In this document: positions 3,836 through 48,872 of the stretch, in pieces
Layout: each line of letters starts with the position of its first letter
How positions within the stretch are numbered: position 1 is the stretch's first letter
Sequence record: MN850621.1
Strand: one strand, 5' to 3'
DNA length: 64,000 nt
Origin: Escherichia phage dhabil
Position numbers and translations under genes: made by a program
The notes under the pieces: model-generated
The model's database searches: none
Told to the model about the DNA's origin: nothing
Seen by the model: the letters and a program-made list of their open reading frames with translations, nothing else

Positions 3836-4459
3836 TTATTTACGAGTCTTTTCGAACTGAGCTGCGTCACCGGCCAGTCGGCGTGCTTGACGAAGTTTGT
3901 TGTCAATTTCTTCGCGCATAGGCTGGGTGTACTTAAGGCCTTCAACCGTCAGATAGAGACGATAAAGGTCTGGTGTGTCCAGGTTGTTAATGTGTTGACC
4001 GTTACGAAGAACATTGAATTCACGAACAAGGTGTTTAGTTTCGGATTCTATTTCAGAAACCAAAGAAGCCAGTTGGTTATATTTTTTAACAATAGTGCTG
4101 GTGTCGAACTTGATTTTAGGTTTAGGAGCTTCTTTTACAGGCTCTGCTTTAGGTGCTGCCGCAGGTTTAGGTGGTGCAACTTTGGTTGGGGCTGCAGGTT
4201 TAGCAACAGGAGCTTTAGCTGGTTTAGCAGGTTTAGTAGCGCCACCGGCTACGATATCTTTAAAAGCTTTGGAAGCTTTGTAATATTCTTTCTGGTTACT
4301 AGTATCAAAACCATACATATCATAAACGTTTTTAAAGAACTCGGTAGTGGTTTTAGTCCCGGAAATTTTATCATAAGCAGCTTGCCACATATCTTTAGTC
4401 ATGCGCACGCTGGCTTCAGTCAGAACGCTTTCGTTCAAAAATTCATTGTAAGTTTTCAT
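3836..4459 (-). CDS. internal head protein, IPIII-like (207 aa) with N-terminal capsid-targeting sequence MKTYNEFLNE
   Basis: N-terminus matches the T4 internal-protein CTS (MKTYQEF-type, L-x-E gp21 cleavage context); Lys/Ala/Pro-rich basic core; T4 IPIII is similar in size. Confidence 0.7.
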   Translation of the reverse strand: MKTYNEFLNESVLTEASVRMTKDMWQAAYDKISGTKTTTEFFKNVYDMYGFDTSNQKEYYKASKAFKDIVAGGATKPAKPAKAPVAKPAAPTKVAPPKPAAAPKAEPVKEAPKPKIKFDTSTIVKKYNQLASLVSEIESETKHLVREFNVLRNGQHINNLDTPDLYRLYLTVEGLKYTQPMREEIDNKLRQARRLAGDAAQFEKTRK

Positions 4460-4853: not shown

Positions 4854-4927
4854 TGGTGGCCCTGGGTGGAATCGAACCACCATCCAGCGATTATGAGTCG
4901 CTCGCTTGACCGTCCAGCTACAGGGCC
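4854..4927 (-). tRNA. tRNA with CAU anticodon (Met, or Ile if lysidine-modified), CCA encoded
   Basis: Manual fold: acceptor GGCCCTG/CAGGGCC, anticodon stem AGCGA/TCGCT with loop CTCATAA, T-arm GGTGG-TTCGATT-CCACC. Confidence 0.75.
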
Positions 4928-5012
4928 TTAATTCTATTATGAAAGGCTCTTTGAGGGAAGAACCTTTGGTAATAGAGGGTATTAATGATAGAGTAATAAT
5001 ATCACATAATTC

Positions 5013-5297
5013 TTAAAGCATATTAATATAGTCAAGTTTAATAGAAGCAATCTTCAAAGGGTTTTTAAAGATGTCGTATTCGACCAATCCATTTTCAGTT
5101 GCGGTATAAAAAGTAAAGTTAACAGAATTATAGCGATGGCTGTTAACTTTGAGTTTAACATCGCTTGAACTACGGCCAATATTAACCTGTTGAACATCAA
5201 GCACGGCATCTTTGCCGTAATTTCGAATCAACAACTCGGCTGCAACCTGATCGGATTTATAGCCATTCTCTGGATTAGTAACCTTAACGTATAACAT
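5013..5297 (-). CDS. hypothetical protein (94 aa)
   Basis: ORF track; abuts the upstream gene end. Confidence 0.5.
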   Translation of the reverse strand: MLYVKVTNPENGYKSDQVAAELLIRNYGKDAVLDVQQVNIGRSSSDVKLKVNSHRYNSVNFTFYTATENGLVEYDIFKNPLKIASIKLDYINML

Positions 5298-5678
5298 TTA
5301 ACCCTCGTCTACAATAGTGTGGGTATTGGCATTGACAATCTGCCACCAGTCAAAACGATTGGAACCGTAACAAGGCTTATTCTCGTTTTCTTTAATGATA
5401 TCGCGCAGTTCATCTTCAGTCGCGGCCTTTGCGATTAAGTCAGCATAACCGCCACGAGGATAATAGTTATCACCGGCAAAGAGCAAAAAGTTTGTTTTGA
5501 TATTCTTGAATTCTTCAAGAGTAATAACTGTTCCACCCGGTTGAACAATATCTACATAACTATATCCTAATTTCTGTGCTTCATTTACCGCTTCAAGCAG
5601 GGTGTCATGCGCCCACCCAATTTGGCAATCTGGTTTTTCAGATGGATTTGCTTGATAATCCGCATACACTTTATACAT
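5298..5678 (-). CDS. hypothetical protein (about 126 aa from MYKVYADY)
   Basis: Start moved to ATG at 5676-5678, which follows RBS AAAGGTGAG and overlaps the upstream stop (TAAAATG). Confidence 0.5.
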   Translation of the reverse strand: MYKVYADYQANPSEKPDCQIGWAHDTLLEAVNEAQKLGYSYVDIVQPGGTVITLEEFKNIKTNFLLFAGDNYYPRGGYADLIAKAATEDELRDIIKENENKPCYGSNRFDWWQIVNANTHTIVDEG

Positions 5679-6292: not shown

Positions 6293-7176
<884 letters not shown>

Positions 7177-38446: not shown

Positions 38447-40006
38447 ATGAAAAAGAATGCATTAGTACAAAAATGGTCCGCTCTGCTGGAAAACGAAGCT
38501 CTTCCTGAAATCGTTGGTGCTTCTAAACAAGCTATCATCGCTAAAATCTTTGAAAACCAGGAACAAGATATTCTGACCGCTCCTGAATATCGTGACGAAA
38601 AAATCTCCGAAGCATTTGGTTCTTTCCTGACTGAAGCTGAAATCGGTGGTGACCACGGTTATGATGCTACCAATATCGCAGCTGGCCAGACCTCTGGTGC
38701 TGTAACTCAGATTGGGCCGGCAGTAATGGGTATGGTTCGTCGTGCTATTCCTCATCTGATTGCTTTTGATATTTGTGGTGTTCAGCCTCTGAATAACCCT
38801 ACCGGCCAGGTATTTGCACTGCGCGCAGTATACGGTAAAGACCCTATCGCTGCTGGCGCTAAAGAAGCTTTCCACCCGATGTATGCTCCGAATGCTATGT
38901 TCTCTGGTCAGGGTGCTGCTCAGACTTTTGAAGCACTGGCTGCAGGTAAAGTTCTGGAAGTTGGTAAAATTTATTCTCACTTCTTCGAAGCTACCGGTTC
39001 TGCACACTTCCAGGCTGTTGAAGCCGTAACCGTTGATGCTGCTGCTACCGATGCTGCTAAACTGGATGTTGCCGTAACCGCTCTGTTGGAAGCTGGTCAG
39101 CTGGCTGAATTGGCTGAAGGTATGGCTACTTCTATCGCTGAACTTCAGGAAGGCTTTAACGGTTCTCAGGACAACCCGTGGAACGAAATGGGCTTCCGTA
39201 TCGATAAACAAGTTATCGAAGCTAAATCCCGTCAGCTGAAAGCAAGTTACTCCATCGAACTGGCACAGGACCTTCGTGCAGTACACGGTATGGATGCAGA
39301 TGCTGAACTGTCCGGTATCCTTGCTACCGAAATTATGCTCGAAATCAACCGTGAAGTTATTGATTGGATTAACTACTCTGCACAGGTTGGTAAATCTGGT
39401 ATGACCAACACCGTTGGCGCTAAAGCTGGTGTGTTTGACTTCCAGGACCCGATCGATATCCGTGGTGCTCGTTGGGCCGGTGAGAGCTTTAAAGCCCTTC
39501 TGTTCCAGATTGATAAAGAAGCAGCCGAAATCGCTCGTCAGACCGGTCGTGGTGCTGGTAACTTCATCATCGCTTCCCGTAACGTAGTTAACGTACTGGC
39601 TGCAGTTGATACTTCTGTAAGTTATGCAGCTCAAGGTCTGGGTCAAGGTTTCAACGTTGACACCACTAAAGCAGTATTTGCCGGTGTTCTTGGTGGTAAA
39701 TATCGCGTTTACATCGACCAGTATGCCCGTGCTGATTACTTCACCATCGGTTATAAAGGTTCCAACGAAATGGACGCAGGTATCTACTACGCCCCTTACG
39801 TTGCACTGACCCCGCTGCGCGGTTCCGATCCGAAGAACTTCCAGCCGGTAATGGGCTTCAAAACTCGTTACGGTATCGGTATTAACCCGTTCGCTGACCC
39901 AGCTGCTCAGGCACCTACCAAACGTATTCAGAATGGTATGCCGGACATCGTTAACAGCCTCGGTCTGAATGGTTACTTCCGTCGCGTTTATGTTAAAGGT
40001 ATCTAA
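38447..40006 (+). CDS. 23: major capsid protein
   Basis: Long blocks (QAIIAKIFENQE, AFGSFLTEAEIGGDHGY, ATNIAAGQTSGAVTQIGPAVMGMVRRAIP, C-terminal FRRVYVKGI) match recalled T4 gp23. Confidence 0.97.
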   Translation: MKKNALVQKWSALLENEALPEIVGASKQAIIAKIFENQEQDILTAPEYRDEKISEAFGSFLTEAEIGGDHGYDATNIAAGQTSGAVTQIGPAVMGMVRRAIPHLIAFDICGVQPLNNPTGQVFALRAVYGKDPIAAGAKEAFHPMYAPNAMFSGQGAAQTFEALAAGKVLEVGKIYSHFFEATGSAHFQAVEAVTVDAAATDAAKLDVAVTALLEAGQLAELAEGMATSIAELQEGFNGSQDNPWNEMGFRIDKQVIEAKSRQLKASYSIELAQDLRAVHGMDADAELSGILATEIMLEINREVIDWINYSAQVGKSGMTNTVGAKAGVFDFQDPIDIRGARWAGESFKALLFQIDKEAAEIARQTGRGAGNFIIASRNVVNVLAAVDTSVSYAAQGLGQGFNVDTTKAVFAGVLGGKYRVYIDQYARADYFTIGYKGSNEMDAGIYYAPYVALTPLRGSDPKNFQPVMGFKTRYGIGINPFADPAAQAPTKRIQNGMPDIVNSLGLNGYFRRVYVKGI

Positions 40007-40129: not shown

Positions 40130-41413
40130 ATGGCAAAGATTAACGAATTACTGCGCGAGTCAACAACTACTACCAGCAACTCATTGGGTCGCCCTAATCT
40201 TGTTGCTTTGACCCGTGCTACCACTAAACTAATTTATCGCGATATCATCGCTGAACAACGTACAAACCAACCTATCGCTGCGTTGTATGGTGTCAAATAT
40301 CTTACCCCTGATAATGAATTCAGTTTCCAAACCGGTGCAGTTTATGGTGGTGAAGTTGGTTCTAAAGACCGTGAAACTATCCCGGAACTCACAGATAAAG
40401 CCCAGGCGATTGCCAAGGGTGACTACTTTAAGTATCAGAATGTGGTTTATAAGGCTCTTCAAGCAAGCCCACTCGCATCCACTAGCGCTACAGAATTGGC
40501 CGATGCTCTTCAAGAAGGTTTGGTGTCATTAACGTGTCGTTTGGTTCCTGATGCAGCCCATACCACTAAATTTGAAGAGAGTGATGTAGAAATCTCTGAT
40601 GCTGTATTCCAGGTTAATAAATGGAATGCCCCTGTTAAGACCCGTAAATTGAAGACTGCTTTGACCGTAGAATTAGCACAGGATATGGAATCAAATGGCT
40701 TCGACGCCCCTGCATTCTTAGAAGACCTCCTGGCTACAGTAATGGCAGATGAAATTAATAAAGATGTTCTGCAATCCCTAATAACCGTATCCAAACGCTA
40801 TAAAGTTACGGGTGTATCTGATAATGGCATCATCGATTTGACTTATGATAGTGCTCCAGAATCTGCACGTAAACTTTATGAAATTGTTTGTGAGATGAAT
40901 TCTGAAATCCAGAAAACTACTTCTTATTCGGGTACGTTTGTTGTGGCTTCAAGTCGTGTGGCTGCAATGCTTGCAGGTTCTGGCTGGTTAAAACATAGAC
41001 CTGAAGATAATAATTGGCTCCCAGAAACGGCCTATGGTTATTTGTTGAATGGATTACCTCTGTTCTGTGACGTTAACAGCCCATTGGATTATGTTATCGT
41101 AGGTGTTAAAGAGAACTATGGTGGTAATGAAGTTGTCGGTTCTATTTTCTATGCCCCATATACAGAAGGCCTGGATTTAGACGACCAAGAACACGTTGGT
41201 GCTTATAAGGTTATTGTCGACCCGGATTCATTACAGCCTTCTATTTCTCTGATGGTTCGTTATGCACTGTCCGCTAACCCGTACACCGTAGCTAAAGACG
41301 ATAAAGAAGCTCGTGTTATCGATGCAACCAATATGGATTTAATGGCTGGTCAGAGTAATATGTCTTATCTGCTTGGTGTTAAACTTCCAGCAATTATTTA
41401 CGAGGCTGATTAA
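40130..41413 (+). CDS. 24: capsid vertex protein gp24, copy 1
   Basis: 427 aa (T4 gp24 length); gp23-like blocks (FRIDKW..EVK.RKLKT.LTVELAQD, YAPYTEGLD, LSANPYTVAKDDKEARVID). Confidence 0.85.
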   Translation: MAKINELLRESTTTTSNSLGRPNLVALTRATTKLIYRDIIAEQRTNQPIAALYGVKYLTPDNEFSFQTGAVYGGEVGSKDRETIPELTDKAQAIAKGDYFKYQNVVYKALQASPLASTSATELADALQEGLVSLTCRLVPDAAHTTKFEESDVEISDAVFQVNKWNAPVKTRKLKTALTVELAQDMESNGFDAPAFLEDLLATVMADEINKDVLQSLITVSKRYKVTGVSDNGIIDLTYDSAPESARKLYEIVCEMNSEIQKTTSYSGTFVVASSRVAAMLAGSGWLKHRPEDNNWLPETAYGYLLNGLPLFCDVNSPLDYVIVGVKENYGGNEVVGSIFYAPYTEGLDLDDQEHVGAYKVIVDPDSLQPSISLMVRYALSANPYTVAKDDKEARVIDATNMDLMAGQSNMSYLLGVKLPAIIYEAD

Positions 41414-42693
41414 TGTCTAAGATTATAGACCTAATTAAAGAATCCACATTGACGGCTGCCAACTCGGTTGGCCGTCCTGCTCTTCTTTCATACACCCAAG
41501 CAACTAATAAACGAATCTTTAAAGCCCTAGTTGCTGAACAAAAAACAAGCCAACCTGTTGCTGCTCTGTACGGGGTTCGTGTACTTAACCCTGACGACAA
41601 AATGACTTATCTTGGTGGCGCTACATTTGCAGGCCAGATTGGTATGTCGGAACGTGAAAATATTCCTGAATTTACCGATTCGTCTACAGCTTATGCAGCC
41701 GGCGATATGTTCCAGTTTGAAAGTGTAGTGTTTAAAGTTCTAGAAGCATCTCCTTTCGCCGGAACCACGGAAACCGACCTCGGTGAAGTTATTTCTGAAG
41801 CAGTGGCCGCTGGGCATATTCGTATGGTATCAGATGCTGCTATTACTTCTAAATTCGAACAAGGCCATCCTGAAATTGCTGAAGCAGGCTTCCGTATTGA
41901 CAAATGGCAATCTGAAGTTAAATCACGTAAACTGAAAACTTCATTGACAGTCGAATTGGCCCAAGACCTAGAATCAAACGGGTTTAATGCTCCTAATTTC
42001 ATTGAAAATCTGCTAGGCATTCAAATGGCAGAAGAAATTAATAAGGACGTATTACAGTCATTAATTACAGTGAGTTCTCGTTTTAAAGTCCAGGGTGTTT
42101 CTGAAAAGGGCGTATTGGACCTTACTAACCCACGTTATGATAATGCCCAGGACCGTGCTCGTACATTATATTATTACATGTGTGAGATGAACTCTGCCGT
42201 CCAACGTCAAACTTCTTTCGCTGGGACTTATGCCGTAGCTAGTTCTCGTTGTGCTGCTATTCTCGCTGCATCCGGTTGGGTTGAGAAAAAGGAAGACCAA
42301 GATGAATTGGCTTATGGTGTATTAAAGAATGGTCTACCTCTTTATGCCGATATGAATAGTCCATGTGATTATGTTATTGTTGGTGTAAATGCTCAGATGG
42401 GTGAAGGACAGACGGTCGCATCTTTATATTATGCGCCTTATACGGAAGGTTTGGATGTGGTTGATGAAGAAGGTGATACTTCAGTAGGTGAATTTAAGGT
42501 TATTGTTGACCCAGAAAGCTTACAACCTACAGTAGCATTGCTTGCTCGTTATGCATTGACTGCAAACCCTTATACCGTCGCTAAGGACGATAAAGAAGCC
42601 CGCATTATTGATGGTTCTGATATGGACAAAATGGCTAACCAAAGCCAGTTGAGTTCTTATCTCGGTGTTAAACTTCCACCACTAGAAAAATAA
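41413..42693 (+). CDS. 24: capsid vertex protein gp24, copy 2 (tandem paralog)
   Basis: 426 aa, alignable with copy 1 over full length; translationally coupled (TAATG). Confidence 0.85.
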   Translation: MSKIIDLIKESTLTAANSVGRPALLSYTQATNKRIFKALVAEQKTSQPVAALYGVRVLNPDDKMTYLGGATFAGQIGMSERENIPEFTDSSTAYAAGDMFQFESVVFKVLEASPFAGTTETDLGEVISEAVAAGHIRMVSDAAITSKFEQGHPEIAEAGFRIDKWQSEVKSRKLKTSLTVELAQDLESNGFNAPNFIENLLGIQMAEEINKDVLQSLITVSSRFKVQGVSEKGVLDLTNPRYDNAQDRARTLYYYMCEMNSAVQRQTSFAGTYAVASSRCAAILAASGWVEKKEDQDELAYGVLKNGLPLYADMNSPCDYVIVGVNAQMGEGQTVASLYYAPYTEGLDVVDEEGDTSVGEFKVIVDPESLQPTVALLARYALTANPYTVAKDDKEARIIDGSDMDKMANQSQLSSYLGVKLPPLEK

Positions 42694-44123: not shown

Positions 44124-45629
44124 ATGTCAGACAATCCATTATACGGGCATGATGGTAGAGGCCACTTTAGAGGCGTATCATTAGTAGAAGTTCCACAGAA
44201 CAAATCATTGGAATTTGTGGACATACTCACTAGTGAAAGCACCTTAGACCCTACTATGCTAGATTCTTCTCAAAGCTATGGACTTGAATTTATAAAACAA
44301 GCTTCTAGGGAAGGCGCGTTGGCCCATTTAGGTATAACTAATGAGATGCTAACACCTGGTACTGAAGGTCCACAAGGCCCTAAAGGAGACCCAGGGCCGC
44401 AAGGTATTCAAGGTAACCCCGGTCCTAAAGGAGAAAAGGGCGAACCAGGACCAGTAGGTCCAGAAGGTCCTAAAGGAGACCCGGGTTCACCAGGAAAAGA
44501 AGGCCCTCAGGGTTTACAAGGGGCCCAAGGAGAAGTAGGACCGCAAGGACCACAAGGTCCTATAGGCCCGGCAGGTTTGGTGTGGAAGGGAGCCTGGGAT
44601 GAATCTACCCAATACTCTAAAGACGATGCAGTTGGATACCAGGGAGCTTCTTATTTTTGCATCAGTTCTAATACAGGAACAATACCTCCTAGCGAAGGAG
44701 TTTGGGCACTATTGGCTAATATCGGTGCACCAGGTCCTCAAGGACCAACAGGCCCAACCGGCCCTCAAGGTCCACAAGGCGCGCCAGGCCAAGATGGTAA
44801 TGGGTTTATCTGGGCCGGAAACTGGGCCCTTGGTTCGTCTTATTATATAAACGATTTGGTCCAGTGCGAAGGGTCTTCTTGGATTTGTATCCAGGATAAT
44901 ATAGCAAATAATGATAGTTATCCTGGGAGTGGAGACCTGTGGGCCGATTATTGGAATTTATTTGTAAAAGAAGGGCGTCCAGGAAATCCCGGAGAAGATG
45001 GTGCACCTGGAGAGCAAGGTGCCCAAGGACCGCAAGGCGACCCAGGTCCTAAAGGTGAAAAGGGTGAACCCGGGCCACAAGGTATTCAAGGTCCTATAGG
45101 TCCTGCAGGTGCGCCAGGCAAAGATGCAGTATTTGATGTCGATTCTTTAACCCAGTCTCAATTAAAATCTTTATATGATAAACTTTTCCCATTCTATCCA
45201 CCTAGATATTGGAAAGGCTCTTTAAGATTTGATAAGCCTCTGAACACTTCAGAGTGGAAGGAAATACGTTTGTGGGACCTTAATATGGTTCTTCATGTTC
45301 GCATGTACTCATCTGTAGGCATCCATATAAGGGCTACTAATGCAGGTCTTACTAATAGGCTTGATATTAAAAGATTTACCAACTATGAAAACGGAATAGA
45401 ATGTGCCAACTGGAGTAATGTGTTGTGGTCATCATCTCCTGAATTATTCGACGATTTGGCTTATTCTAGTGCAAGACAATTTAACCGTTACGAAATATTT
45501 GACCGTGATACTAGAAAATACTACACTGTATCTGTGTTTATTGTAGGCGGCCCTCTTAATACGACTACAGATATCCCTGTTGAAGTTTTATTTTCTGTCG
45601 AAGACCATACCAATATGAGCACGTTTTAA
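44124..45629 (+). CDS. collagen-like triple-helix repeat protein with two carbohydrate-binding-like (CBM5/12-type) inserts and a C-terminal globular domain (501 aa)
   Basis: Three Gly-X-Y runs (aa about 81-152, 203-229, 286-336) separated by two W....Y..(D)D.V.Y.G.SY.C...N.G..P....W motifs; RBS AGGAGA. Confidence 0.75.
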
Positions 45630-45638
45630 GGAGGTTAA

Positions 45639-46505
45639 ATGATTGTACTTAAAATAAATGGTCCTAGATATGAATTGGTTGGCAGGACAGTAACCTTTTA
45701 TACCGGGTTTGTATTACCACCCGGTTCTACTCTAGATGACGTAGAAATTAATTGGTATAAAAACGATGTCCATATTCCACAACTTCCTACCGAAGACCCT
45801 TTTGAATTAAATTTATGGGAAGTAGGATTCCCGGCGGCAGGAACATTTTATGCGACCATAACAAATAAGAAAAGTGGTGAAATAACAAAGAGTAACGAAA
45901 TAGAACTTGAAATAGGTACCCTTCCAAGAAGAATAGTCCTAGATATAAACTCTAGGGAATTAATATATGCCAATATAGGAGAAACAGTTTCACTTCGCCC
46001 GTCGTGTAGAGTGGAACCCACTTATGCCGAAAGAATTTGTAGATGGTATAGAGATGGAGTAGAATTATCTAAAGACGAAGATATTGATATATTAATAGAC
46101 GACCCTGATAAATTTGGAGATTATACATTAAAATCTATAGCGACCTGCGAAGGAGCATATATCCCTGCTTCTGAAGAACTTTTAGTTGAAATAAAACCTA
46201 GGGATGATGTATTGCAGTGCCCTTTCATATATGATAACGACCTTAATGCTTATTTACCATATGGCGGTGGAAGAAATGAATCGTATATGTGGATAGGTTG
46301 GTGGGTATGGGACGAAATAAGAGAAGCCGTTAGATTGGGAGAAGATTGGACTTTGGATATAAACAACAGCCCATACAAGTATAAATGTGAGTTACAAAAA
46401 GTAGCCGACCTTTTGTCTAAGTATCCTGAAGTAGAGATACAAGAGTCGAGAAATGGCTACATCTTAGAAAGGAAAGACTTAGTTTACGTCCCTCCTGAAA
46501 AATAA
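45639..46505 (+). CDS. Hoc-like capsid decoration protein paralog (288 aa)
   Basis: C-terminal about 90 aa (YMWIGWWVWDEI...EDW...LQKVADL...YPEVEIQESRNG) parallels the Hoc C-terminus at 46779-47066; RBS AGGAGG. Confidence 0.7.
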   Translation: MIVLKINGPRYELVGRTVTFYTGFVLPPGSTLDDVEINWYKNDVHIPQLPTEDPFELNLWEVGFPAAGTFYATITNKKSGEITKSNEIELEIGTLPRRIVLDINSRELIYANIGETVSLRPSCRVEPTYAERICRWYRDGVELSKDEDIDILIDDPDKFGDYTLKSIATCEGAYIPASEELLVEIKPRDDVLQCPFIYDNDLNAYLPYGGGRNESYMWIGWWVWDEIREAVRLGEDWTLDINNSPYKYKCELQKVADLLSKYPEVEIQESRNGYILERKDLVYVPPEK

Positions 46506-46754: not shown

Positions 46755-46780
46755 AAATAAGGGCCTTGCGGCCCTTTATT
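46755..46780 (-). terminator. hairpin GGGCC-TTGC-GGCCC flanked by T-rich tracts (possibly bidirectional)
   Basis: AAATAAGGGCCTTGCGGCCCTTTATT directly 3' of hoc. Confidence 0.45.
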
Positions 46781-48191
46781 AATAAACGTAATCGTAAATA
46801 ATTCCAGCATCCAAAGCGGTTCTGTGAATAATTCTACCATTACGAGATTCCTGTACATCAACCTCAGGATAATCGGCTACCATTTTTTGAAGGGTATAAC
46901 GATGGAGATAATATTCACTATCAGGTTCGTCAGTTTTCCAGTCTTTGCCTTCAAGGGTCATTTTCTGAATTTCGTCCATAACCCACCAACCACACCAAAT
47001 ATAAGCTGAATTACGAACTGGTAGCGGATGAACGTAAGGTAGTTCGCCCTCTGGTTCAGGAGCGACTTTAGCCGTAATTGTTACATTACCGGATTTTGTG
47101 ACGGTCACAGAATTATAGTCGGTAGCCGAAACCACAACAGAAACTTCAATAACCTGTGAACCTTCAGCGCTTGTGTCAATTACTAATGTATCCGTAGCAC
47201 CCACAACAGGTGAACCATCTTTCTTCCAAGAATAAGCAAAAGTAGCACCACTAGGCGCACCGACTACCGTGGCTTTAAAAGAAGCCGGGATTCCTTCAGA
47301 GACAGTAATAGAAGCAGGCGTTAAATTAACAGAAACACCTGCCATAGTCTTTTTAGTAATTGTTACACTTCCTGTTTTGGTAACGGTTAAATCATTATAA
47401 TCCGTACCTTTTAGGAGTACCGAAACTTCAATAGAGTAAGAACCTATTGTAGACGTATCAACAGCAAGAGTATTACTGCTTTCGCCCGGAATAATAGAAC
47501 CGTTTTTCTTCCAAGAATAAGTTGCATTTACGCCGGAAGGAGCGCCGACTACATCCGCTTTAAACTGTGCAGATGAGTCTTTCTCTGTACTAATTGAGGC
47601 CGGTGTTAAAGTAACAGAAACACCTGATATAGTTTTCTTAACAAAAGTTACCGCAGCACCTTTAGTAGCGGTACCCGGGTTATATTCAGGGGCGGTAACA
47701 GTAACTTCACAGTTCAACGTGTAATTTGCTTCCGCGGCTTCGGTTACAGTAATAGTTTTACCAGTTTGGCCAGAGATTACGCTGGTGTTACGTTTCCAAA
47801 CATAAGCAATTGTTGCACCTGCAGGTGCACCCGTCACGTTAGCAGTAACAACTTGAGATTGGCCAACTTCTTTAGAAACAGAAATAGGGTCCAAAGCCAA
47901 AGAAATAGACATGGTCTTATTAGCTACGGTAACTTCAAAAGTATCTTCAGCTACCTCAGGTTCGCCTTCAGCCGGAGTAGAAGTTGCTACTACTTTTAAA
48001 ACTTTCTTACCTACAGGTGCAGCACCTGTATATTTCAAAACATTGGTTGCTTCTGGATTAGAAGCACCATCAATAGACCATACATATGTAATGGTTCCTT
48101 CTACAGCTGCACCTGTTGCGGTAGCAGTGTAGTTAGCACTTTCGCCTATTTTAATAGACGCTGTGCCGGCTATACTTACAGTAAAAGCCAT
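46779..48191 (-). CDS. hoc: Hoc outer capsid protein with four Ig-like repeats plus C-terminal capsid-binding domain (470 aa)
   Basis: Four about 95-aa Ig-like repeats each containing Y-x-W-K/S-x-(D/N)G; position next to inh as in T4. Confidence 0.85.
   Translation of the reverse strand: MAFTVSIAGTASIKIGESANYTATATGAAVEGTITYVWSIDGASNPEATNVLKYTGAAPVGKKVLKVVATSTPAEGEPEVAEDTFEVTVANKTMSISLALDPISVSKEVGQSQVVTANVTGAPAGATIAYVWKRNTSVISGQTGKTITVTEAAEANYTLNCEVTVTAPEYNPGTATKGAAVTFVKKTISGVSVTLTPASISTEKDSSAQFKADVVGAPSGVNATYSWKKNGSIIPGESSNTLAVDTSTIGSYSIEVSVLLKGTDYNDLTVTKTGSVTITKKTMAGVSVNLTPASITVSEGIPASFKATVVGAPSGATFAYSWKKDGSPVVGATDTLVIDTSAEGSQVIEVSVVVSATDYNSVTVTKSGNVTITAKVAPEPEGELPYVHPLPVRNSAYIWCGWWVMDEIQKMTLEGKDWKTDEPDSEYYLHRYTLQKMVADYPEVDVQESRNGRIIHRTALDAGIIYDYVY
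47067..47621 (-). repeat. internal tandem duplication of Ig-like domains 3 and 4 within hoc
   Basis: ATYSWKKNGSIIPGESSNTLAVDTSTIGSYSIEVSV... versus FAYSWKKDGSPVVGATDTLVIDTSAEGSQVIEVSV... are closely similar. Confidence 0.6.
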
Positions 48192-48200
48192 ATTTTACCC

Positions 48201-48872
48201 TTATTTTAAAGTTACGAAAGATGAATTACGCGTTTCACGTACTAATACTGAACCATTACGATTGATGTAATAAATCAGACTGAATAGTGTTTGGTGGGCA
48301 GATGGGTGTTGGAAATCTTTAGGGCGTTCTTTCCAATCAGGGGTTTCGGTAATCCATTGATAAATCCACCAAGGCACAGTACAATACCCTGGGTTTTTAC
48401 CAATGAGTAAAAGATTAGGGCTAAAGTTTTCAGGTAAAGAGAATACAGGTTTTTCAGATTCAATAACCTCGGCCACAGCCTCTTTGAATTTCTCTTCGAC
48501 AAACGGGACGTCTTCTTCAATAATCTCTACCTTAGGAAGTTCGGCTACCTCAATAACTTCAACTACCGCTTCAGGGGCATCAAATAATAGGGTAGCCTCT
48601 TCTTTGGCGGGTTCGGCACCATCAACAAATTCGTTAGCGCCTGTGAGTTCGTCGGCGGCATCAATCAAATCAGAAATAGACAAACCTTCGGTTTCTGGAA
48701 GTGGTTCATCAGCCAGGGCTTTAAGGCCTTCAGAGATATCGATAATCAAATTATCAAACGAACGGGTTTTCTTAAGTTTCAAACCGAATTGTTCGCCGTA
48801 TTCGATTAACTTAGCTTTAGCTTCTTTTTTATCTTCGAGTGCACGAAGCTCTTCAATATATTGAGTATCCAT
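48201..48872 (-). CDS. inh: Inh, inhibitor of prohead protease
   Basis: 223 aa (T4 Inh is similar), acidic N-terminal half; position between hoc and uvsW. Confidence 0.7.
   Translation of the reverse strand: MDTQYIEELRALEDKKEAKAKLIEYGEQFGLKLKKTRSFDNLIIDISEGLKALADEPLPETEGLSISDLIDAADELTGANEFVDGAEPAKEEATLLFDAPEAVVEVIEVAELPKVEIIEEDVPFVEEKFKEAVAEVIESEKPVFSLPENFSPNLLLIGKNPGYCTVPWWIYQWITETPDWKERPKDFQHPSAHQTLFSLIYYINRNGSVLVRETRNSSFVTLK

What the first reader, a model, noticed from the sequence alone, without database searches (positions are those of the whole stretch)
48201..48400. Inh C-terminus appears to carry the same module as the Hoc and Hoc-like C-termini
The last about 65 aa of Inh (PGYCTVPWWIYQWITETPDWKERPKD...LIYYINRNGSVLVRETRNSS) share a W-W-x-x-[DQ]-x-I...DWK...(E-[ST]-RN-[GS]) pattern with the Hoc (WWVMDEI...KDWKTD...QESRNG) and Hoc-like (WWVWDEI...EDWTLD...QESRNG) C-termini. 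If real, Inh would use a Hoc-type capsid-binding module, which bears on how it is targeted to the prohead. The similarity is weaker than that between Hoc and its paralog.
Basis: seen in the sequence. Interest (0 to 1): 0.45.

Follow-up and report, generated by a model that had tools for sequence, protein, structure and literature searches.

The report
Inh carries a Hoc-type capsid anchor
The last ~80 residues of the little-studied T4-family protein Inh ("inhibitor of prohead protease") are a true but distant relative of the domain that fixes the Hoc fibre to the centre of each capsid hexamer, so Inh is probably anchored to the head shell in the same way.

Summary
The window is Escherichia phage dhaeg (Dhakavirus). 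inh (48201-48872, -) lies 9 nt upstream of hoc, and a second Hoc-like gene is nearby.

The shared pattern WW..[DQ].I / DW[KT] / E[ST]RN[GS] is present as described. Evidence that it reflects homology:
- Single-sequence alignments beat shuffles (z=5.0).
- Profile-profile alignment of 96 diverse Inh C-termini against 41 Hoc C-termini gives HHalign probability 97.8%, E 9.5e-13. This is about 20 SD above 500 column-shuffles.
- Reciprocal HMM searches of 1298 neighbouring ORFs cross-hit only the other family.
- Some Inh-family members are intermediates (GYWVVDEI...DDWK...RESRNS).
- An AlphaFold model built from Inh sequences only (C-domain pLDDT 94-97) has the solved T4 Hoc C-terminal domain (8t1x_X) as its only credible PDB neighbour: Foldseek probability 0.97, TM 0.54.

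The shared near-invariant residues are those that contact the gp23* hexamer in T4 Hoc, namely the WW pair and the E-S/T-R-N loop.

Homology is shown; capsid docking is inferred. Hoc's site forms only after head expansion, so "targeting to the prohead" is not supported as stated. I found no paper, Pfam or PHROG grouping that links the two. Verdict: a new member of a known domain family, of moderate interest.

The parts
48201..48872 (-). inh gene, 223 aa plus stop. A full-length member of the Inh family ('inhibitor of prohead protease').
   Evidence: ORF. phrog_1051 E 5.4e-91 over residues 1-223. 100% identical to Escherichia phage dhaeg dhaeg_78. Homologs carry the precomputed Pfam entries PF26098 and PF26097.
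48204..48452 (-). Inh C-terminal domain, about aa 141-223: the Hoc-type module. Predicted elements are strand 163-166, helix 168-176 starting at W168-W169, a short 3-residue helical turn at 184-186, helix 190-206, strand 209-213, the E213-T-R-N-S217 loop, and strand 219-222.
   Evidence: HHalign against Hoc-C 97.8%, E 9.5e-13; shuffles z about 20. AF2 pLDDT 94-97. Foldseek top PDB hit 8t1x_X, probability 0.97, TMt 0.54, rmsd 3.6 A over 83 columns. Hoc proteins follow the Inh family in BFVD. PHROG 1149 'Hoc-like head decoration' matches Inh 156-216, E 1.2e-4.
48453..48581 (-). Acidic, length-variable linker, about aa 98-140 (pI about 4).
   Evidence: Variable and gapped columns in alignment A1. 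pLDDT 59-70. pI 4.06 for residues 101-145.
48582..48872 (-). Inh N-terminal helical domain, about aa 1-97. The first ~50 aa form a separate module that also occurs at the C-terminus of phrog_3259 proteins.
   Evidence: Helices 3-10, 15-28, 39-55 and 66-77, pLDDT 82-95. phrog_3259 matches Inh 2-51. P0237, P0242, P0244 and P0235 carry it C-terminally. UniProt names 'Inh N-terminal domain-containing protein' appear.
46779..48191 (-). [quoted passage not shown] It starts 9 nt downstream of inh on the same strand.
   Evidence: phrog_1149 E 2e-123; Pfam I-set, Ig_3 and Ig_2. PDB 5vf3_Z/8t1x T4 Hoc E 1.9e-115. Gap of 9 nt.
46782..47072 (-). Hoc C-terminal capsid-binding domain, about aa 374-470, equivalent to T4 Hoc 281-376.
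   Evidence: Collinear alignment to T4 Hoc 281-376. Offset of +93 residues relative to T4.
45639..46505 (+). Hoc-like paralog, 288 aa. Its Hoc-type capsid-binding domain is at about aa 189-288 (nt 46203-46502).
   Evidence: phrog_1149 E 6e-43 and phrog_21694 E 8.6e-12. Hoc-C HMM 110 bits. Annotated 'head outer capsid protein' in dhaeg.
38447..40006 (+). gp23 major capsid protein. Its capsomer-centre loop (T4 G326-R344), which Hoc docks on, is conserved here.
   Evidence: 84% identical to T4 gp23. The loop is 18/19 identical, with D336, P337 and R344 kept. The role of the loop is from PMC10385173.

Best explanation
Inh is a three-part protein: an N-terminal helical domain, an acidic variable linker, and a C-terminal domain of about 80 residues.

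The C-terminal domain is an ancient paralog of the capsid-binding domain of Hoc, which is encoded by the gene immediately downstream. This much is shown: common ancestry and a common predicted fold.

The rest is inferred. The residues kept in both families are the tryptophan pair at the start of helix 1 and the E-S/T-R-N loop between the last two strands. These are the ones that touch the centre of the gp23* hexamer in T4 Hoc, and the gp23 docking loop is conserved in this phage. Inh therefore most likely docks by this domain on the outside of the head shell, at or near the capsomer centre, where it would display or tether its acidic N-terminal part. That would account for its old label 'minor head protein'.

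The family-specific replacements at other contact positions, and the basic charge of Inh-C, suggest that its exact site, shell state or affinity differs from Hoc's. How this relates to inhibition of the gp21 protease is not resolved by the sequence.
For: Sequence:
- Pairwise z=5.0.
- HHalign 88.5% with the shallow profile and 97.8%, E 9.5e-13 with the deep profile. None of 1100 column-shuffles reaches the observed score.
- The Inh-C HMM finds 44 non-Inh ORFs among 1298, all of them Hoc or Hoc-like. The Hoc-C HMM's only foreign hits are Inh proteins.
- Full-length Inh-family members bridge the two families. P0213 scores 44.5 bits on the Hoc-C HMM and hits phrog_1149 at 4.9e-13; P0227 and P0239 behave similarly.

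Structure:
- Two AF2 models were built from Inh-only alignments.
- Both have 8t1x_X (T4 Hoc C-domain on the gp23* capsomer) as top PDB hit, with probability 0.99 and 0.97 and TMt 0.53 and 0.54. The next hits have probability 0.08 or less.
- In BFVD, more than 15 Hoc proteins follow the Inh family at probability about 1.0.

Residues:
- Y163/Y304, W168-W169/W309-W310, I174/I315, D179-W180-K181/D324-W325-K326, and E213-T-R215-N216/E355-S-R357-N358 are near-invariant in both families.
- The roles of these Hoc residues are from PMC10385173.

Context:
- hoc starts within 400 nt downstream of inh in 35 of 42 loci, and 9 nt downstream in 17 of them, the commonest spacing.
- The gp23 docking loop is 18/19 identical to T4.
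Against: - No experiment here or in the searched literature shows Inh on the capsid surface. A KEGG-based description lists inh among 'head internal' proteins.
- Foldseek E-values against the PDB are only 0.03-0.13.
- Hoc contact residues W306, Q354 and G359 are replaced by T/N, R and S in Inh. R300 is only partly kept. The Hoc beta-1 residues Y293 and H295 are not aligned.
- In this particular Inh, the partner of the loop arginine is Q172 rather than Asp.
- Inh-C is basic (pI 8.9) and Hoc-C acidic (pI 4.8).
- An exterior anchor does not explain inhibition of a protease that works inside the prohead.
- The T4 Inh against T4 Hoc pairwise score is weak (z=2.4).
Confidence: 0.7

Rival explanations
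1. The fold is homologous but the job is different. Inh-C descends from the Hoc anchor but now recognises something other than the mature capsomer centre. Candidates are the unexpanded prohead lattice, unassembled gp23, or gp21 itself. On this reading the module serves protease control rather than decoration.
For: Contact positions are fixed differently in the two families (W306 to T/N, Q354 to R, G359 to S), and 3 aligned-region residues are added before strand 2. The charge is reversed: pI 8.9 against 4.8. Hoc itself cannot fit the unexpanded hexamer (PMC10385173), which leaves room for a variant that can. Inh is traditionally named a gp21 inhibitor (annotations).
Against: The residues most conserved between the families are the capsomer-contacting WW pair and ESRN loop. 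The gp23 loop is conserved. Nothing in the data points to gp21 binding.
Confidence: 0.25
2. The resemblance is chance or a compositional artefact of short Trp-rich motifs.
For: Single-pair BLAST E-values are modest: 0.013 and 8e-4. T4 Inh against T4 Hoc gives z=2.4.
Against: Profile-profile score is 65.8 against a shuffle maximum of 31.4. HMM cross-hits are reciprocal and exclusive. Bridging sequences exist. An independent fold prediction hits the Hoc C-domain alone among 350,542 PDB chains.
Confidence: 0.02
3. The similarity comes from recent gene conversion or recombination between the adjacent inh and hoc genes in this lineage, not from ancient shared ancestry.
For: The genes are adjacent and co-oriented, 9 nt apart. 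This region is known to be plastic (PMC2839356).
Against: Identity is only 18-28%. The relationship holds across 109 Inh clusters at 50% identity and across 1421 phage records. Each family has its own invariant residues. No DNA-level similarity is needed to explain the data.
Confidence: 0.03

Closest known systems
Hoc C-terminal capsid-binding domain (T4 Hoc residues 281-376; PDB 8T1X/8T9R; Fokine et al. 2023, PMC10385173)
   Same: The order of elements matches: strand, helix beginning with WW, helices, strand, E-S/T-R-N loop, strand. TM is 0.54 to the solved domain. Y304, W309, W310, I315, D324-W-K326, E355, R357 and N358 are conserved. The gene sits next to hoc.
   Different: The domain is attached to a helical acidic N-terminal part instead of a string of Ig-like domains. 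W306, Q354 and G359 are replaced. The domain is basic rather than acidic. Capsid binding has not been demonstrated.
Non-canonical Hoc-anchor fusions noted by Fokine et al. (second short Hoc of phage Muldoon; PG7 protein with the capsid-binding domain plus a GDSL lipase)
   Same: The same idea: one anchoring domain is reused to place different cargo on the capsid. The window itself has a second Hoc-like gene (45639-46505).
   Different: Those proteins are found by BLAST with Hoc-C, so they are close relatives. Inh-C is far more divergent and forms its own large, separately named family (phrog_1051; Pfam PF26098/PF26097).
T4 head internal proteins with a capsid targeting sequence (IPI, IPII, IPIII, Alt)
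   Same: Inh is grouped with them in a KEGG-based scheme. They are small, non-essential head-associated proteins.
   Different: Inh lacks the MK[ST]Y.EF[IL].E targeting sequence that two other ORFs of this window carry. Its conserved module is of the exterior-anchor type.

Membership tests
Hoc-type capsid-binding domain | Significant sequence-profile similarity to Hoc C-terminal domains | tested here: met
   HHalign 97.8%, E 9.5e-13, 62 columns. Shuffle z about 20. PHROG 1149 E 1.2e-4 on Inh 156-216.
Hoc-type capsid-binding domain | Fold: a small beta-sheet base carrying a helical bundle, unique in the PDB (PMC10385173) | tested here: met
   This rests on a predicted model only. C-domain pLDDT is 94-97. 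The top and only credible PDB hit is 8t1x_X: probability 0.97, TMt 0.54, rmsd 3.6 A. The model shows three clear strands plus one bridge residue, where Hoc has four strands.
Hoc-type capsid-binding domain | Conserved E-S-R-N-G loop between the last two strands | tested here: met
   Inh has E213-T-R-N-S217. Across 96 Inh sequences: E 93, T/S 90, R 86, N 86. The last position is S (86) instead of G.
Hoc-type capsid-binding domain | [quoted passage not shown] | tested here: met
   W168-W169 sit at the start of predicted helix 168-176. Across the family, Y/W at the first position in 81 of 96 and W at the second in 88 of 96.
Hoc-type capsid-binding domain | Asp313-Arg357 pair that holds the loop | tested here: inconclusive
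   Arg is kept (R215). The partner is Q172 in this protein, but Asp in 68 of 96 Inh sequences.
Hoc-type capsid-binding domain | Other capsomer-contact residues (Y293, H295, R300, W306, Q354, Y360) | tested here: not met
   W306 becomes T/N and Q354 becomes R. R300 corresponds to K159 here and is variable (P/R/K) in the family. Y293 and H295 lie outside the aligned region.
Hoc-type capsid-binding domain | Binds the centre of the expanded gp23* hexamer | not testable with these tools
   Only the target loop could be checked. It is 18/19 identical to T4.
Hoc protein proper (head outer capsid fibre) | String of N-terminal Ig-like domains | tested here: not met
   No Ig hit in Pfam for Inh. The N-terminal part is helical. 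All 109 Inh representatives are 60-435 aa, with no Ig-bearing architecture among the full-length matches.
Inh family (phrog_1051; Pfam PF26098 + PF26097) | Full-length similarity to T4 Inh | tested here: met
   phrog_1051 E 5.4e-91. 66% identical to T4 Inh over all 223 residues.
Inh family (phrog_1051; Pfam PF26098 + PF26097) | Inhibits the gp21 prohead protease | not testable with these tools
   This rests on old T4 biochemistry and genetics, recalled from memory and not found in the searchable library.
CTS-targeted head internal proteins | N-terminal MK[ST]Y.EF[IL].E targeting and cleavage sequence | tested here: not met
   Inh starts MDTQYIEELRALE. True CTS-type N-termini are on ORFs 6293-6502 and 3836-4459. 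The Y-I-x-E-L motif is kept in only 25 of 65 Inh sequences.

The most novel reading that the evidence does not exclude
Inh is not an internal protease inhibitor in the usual sense. It is an exterior ligand of the capsomer centre that uses a diverged Hoc anchor tuned to a different shell state, for example the unexpanded prohead that Hoc cannot fit. On this reading it occupies the Hoc site before expansion, or competes for it afterwards, and affects maturation or protease access only indirectly.
Probability: 0.15. Interest if true: 0.7.

Novelty: new member of a known kind. Interest (0 to 1): 0.5.

Why it matters
Inh occurs in more than 1400 sequenced T4-type phages, yet a recent comprehensive T4 head review does not mention it. 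How it acts and where it sits are essentially unknown.

A Hoc-type anchor on Inh gives a concrete, cheap hypothesis: Inh binds gp23 hexamer centres, possibly in competition with Hoc. This can be tested with existing hoc- soc- heads and cryo-EM maps.

It also bears on T4 display and vaccine platforms that load cargo onto the Hoc site. And it extends the known repertoire of proteins that reuse this otherwise unique fold to functionalise the capsid.

Tried and rejected
- The Hoc C-terminus alone as a query to the 5.8-billion-protein search returned only 15 short fragments with no Pfam annotation. It was of little use, so Hoc diversity was taken from 41 viral loci instead.
- The local Pfam copy has no model for Inh, although homologs carry precomputed PF26098/PF26097. 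The names of those entries could not be read. Full-length Hoc-like proteins carry no Pfam entry over the C-domain, so Pfam does not link the two families.
- A profile search of 1.84 billion representatives with full-length Inh found 109 Inh clusters and no Ig-type Hoc. HMMER alone does not bridge the families at that database size.
- Several literature searches for Inh function or virion location, or for any statement linking Inh and Hoc, found nothing relevant. Three of these were poorly targeted. Miller 2003 and Black & Rao 2012 are not held.
- I considered an N-terminal capsid-targeting or gp21-cleavage sequence on Inh. It is not supported.
This probably explains why the link was missed.
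- The first AF2 model, from a shallow alignment, was low-confidence (pLDDT 65). It was superseded by the 65-sequence model.

Full report
**What is there**

The window matches Escherichia phage dhaeg (Dhakavirus, Tevenvirinae); Inh is 100% identical. The local gene order is as follows:
- gp23, 38447-40006 (+)
- two gp24-like ORFs
- rnlB
- a collagen/CBM5_12 ORF, 44124-45629 (+)
- a Hoc-like paralog, 45639-46505 (+)
- hoc, 46779-48191 (-)
- inh, 48201-48872 (-)
- uvsW

The finding's coordinates, 48201-48400 (-), encode the stop codon and Inh residues about 158-223.

**Is the similarity more than chance?**

Yes, at every level tested.

Pairwise:
- BLASTP of Inh-C against Hoc-C gives E 0.013, and against Hoc-like-C E 8e-4.
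- The Smith-Waterman score is 52 in both cases, against 5000 shuffles with mean 26.5-26.8 and SD 5. That is z=5.0, reached by 5 and 1 shuffles respectively.

Profiles:
- I collected 41 viral loci with an Inh homolog. From them I extracted 34 distinct Inh C-termini and 41 Hoc or Hoc-like C-termini.
- HHalign gave probability 88.5%, E 2.7e-6 and score 35.9. Six hundred column-shuffled controls averaged 11.5 (SD 2.5-2.7, maximum 26.2), and reversed profiles scored about 10-12.
- A search of 1.84 billion cluster representatives with the Inh alignment returned 109 Inh clusters.
- With 96 of their C-domains, HHalign rose to 97.8%, E 9.5e-13, score 65.8 over 62 columns. Five hundred shuffles gave mean 11, SD 2.6, maximum 31.4, so z is about 20-22.

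Reciprocal HMM searches of all 1298 ORFs in these loci:
- The Inh-C HMM's 44 non-Inh hits are all Hoc or Hoc-like.
- The Hoc-C HMM's only foreign hits are Inh proteins.

Intermediate sequences:
- Full-length Inh-family proteins such as P0213 (…GYWVVDEIDKLGDDWK…EVTIRESRNSQY…) score 44.5 bits on the Hoc-C HMM.
- P0213 matches both phrog_1051 (Inh) and phrog_1149 (Hoc-like, E 4.9e-13).
- The window's own Inh hits phrog_1149 at E 1.2e-4, on exactly the C-terminal part of that profile.

**Structure**

No Inh structure is solved.
- An AF2 model from a shallow Inh-only alignment was weak: pLDDT 65.
- A 65-sequence Inh-only alignment (A2) gave mean pLDDT 86.6, with the C-domain at 94-97.
- Its elements are strand 163-166, helix 168-176 beginning at W168-W169, a 3-residue helical turn at 184-186, helix 190-206, strand 209-213, the E-T-R-N-S loop, and strand 219-222.

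Foldseek comparisons:
- The values are probability 0.99 and 0.97, TM normalised to the target 0.53 and 0.54, and rmsd 4.8 and 3.6 A over 83-84 columns.
- All other hits have probability 0.08 or less. The E-values themselves are modest, 0.03-0.13.
- Against BFVD, the Inh family comes first. More than 15 Hoc proteins from diverse phages follow, at probability about 1.0 over 78-87 columns.

**Which residues are shared**

I mapped the HHalign columns to T4 Hoc numbering and to the contacts described for T4 Hoc (PMC10385173).

Positions near-invariant in both families:

| Inh (this window) | T4 Hoc | Note |
|---|---|---|
| Y163 | Y304 | sheet contact |
| P167 | G308 | |
| W168-W169 | W309-W310 | helix 1 contacts |
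| I174 | I315 | |
| D179-W180-K181 | D324-W325-K326 | |
| V209, V211 | V351, V353 | |
| E213-T-R215-N216 | E355-S-R357-N358 | the loop that sits at the capsomer centre; mutations here impair Hoc binding |

The Asp partner of the loop arginine (D313) is Asp in 68 of 96 Inh sequences, but Gln in this one.

Systematic differences:
- Hoc W306 becomes T/N.
- Hoc Q354 becomes R.
- Hoc G359 becomes S.
- Hoc R300 corresponds to a variable P/R/K position.
- The beta-1 contacts Y293 and H295 fall outside the aligned block.
- Inh-C is basic (pI 8.9), whereas Hoc-C is acidic (pI 4.8).

The gp23 loop that Hoc docks on (G326-R344) is 18/19 identical to T4 in this phage.

**Context and origin**

In 35 of 42 loci, a gene with a Hoc-type C-domain begins within 400 nt downstream of inh on the same strand. 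The commonest spacing is 9 nt, seen in 17 loci. Seven loci have more than one such gene. Adjacent paralogous modules at low identity, each family with its own invariant residues, point to an old local duplication followed by fusion to different N-terminal parts. They do not point to recent gene conversion.

**How it most likely works**

Shown: Inh has a helical N-domain, an acidic variable linker, and a Hoc-type C-domain.

Inferred: the C-domain docks on the outer face of the gp23 shell at or near the hexamer centre. This would make Inh a minor head protein that carries an acidic N-terminal part, analogous to the alternative Hoc-anchor fusions noted by Fokine et al..

The link to protease inhibition is unresolved:
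- Hoc's site exists only after expansion and lies outside the shell.
- gp21 works inside the unexpanded prohead.
- A KEGG-based description lists inh among head-internal proteins.
- Inh lacks the capsid-targeting sequence that two other ORFs of this window carry.

The main rival is that the domain has been retuned to another target or shell state. Chance and gene conversion are effectively excluded.

**T4 reference**

T4 Inh and Hoc were taken from AF158101. The single-pair score is weak: z=2.4, 136/5000 shuffles. The Inh-C profile nevertheless aligns to T4 Hoc 300-359 at 21.8 bits, with the same register. This explains why the relationship is invisible to BLAST in T4 itself.

**Is it known?**

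I found no statement of it.
- The Hoc structure paper does not mention Inh, nor does the 2023 T4 head review.
- PHROGs keeps the two families apart.
- Inh homologs carry PF26098/PF26097, while full-length Hoc-like proteins carry no Pfam entry on the C-domain.
- Full-text searches found nothing.

The library does not hold most subscription papers, so prior mention cannot be excluded. I rate it a new member of a known domain family, of moderate interest.

Noticed in passing
window 40130-41413 (+) and 41413-42693 (+): Two tandem gp24-like vertex-protein ORFs (427 and 426 aa) lie directly after gp23. T4 has one gene 24 here.
   Followed up: no
window 44124-45629 (+): A 501-aa ORF with collagen triple-helix repeats and CBM_5_12 modules sits immediately upstream of, and co-oriented with, the Hoc-like paralog. 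It is annotated 'hypothetical' in phage dhaeg. It has no Hoc-type C-domain by HMM search, and its PHROG hits are tail-fibre families.
   Followed up: partly
window 6293-6502 (-) and 3836-4459 (-): Two ORFs begin with a T4-style capsid targeting sequence ([20 protein letters not shown]). They are probably internal head proteins.
   Followed up: no
window 48723-48872 (-), Inh residues 1-50; proteins P0237, P0242, P0244, P0235: The first ~50 residues of Inh form a separate helical module. It recurs at the C-terminus of otherwise unrelated phage proteins of phrog_3259 (function unknown). It looks Rho_N/HeH-like by eye, but no significant match was obtained.
   Followed up: partly
loci L008, L012, L014: These loci have inh but no Hoc-type ORF within about 5 kb downstream. 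L012 spans contig range 1-10628 of a 174,924-bp contig. The Enterobacter phage vB_EclM_CIP9 record (NC_048849.1) has the same length, and its Inh hit at 4879-5628 (-) maps onto that position. Whether hoc lies elsewhere in those genomes was not checked.
   Followed up: no
loci L024 (5766-7099), L031 (5703-10295), L040 (5742-7586): The Hoc-anchor genes vary in arrangement. L024 has three short tandem ORFs. L031 has three genes, including a 944-aa Hoc. L040 has two ORFs on the opposite strand, one of which has the ESRNG-like motif near its N-terminus.
   Followed up: no
window 48204-48452 (-) versus 46782-47072 (-): The Inh C-domain is basic (pI 8.9), while the homologous Hoc C-domain is acidic (pI 4.8). 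The rest of Inh is strongly acidic (pI about 4.1-4.2).
   Followed up: partly
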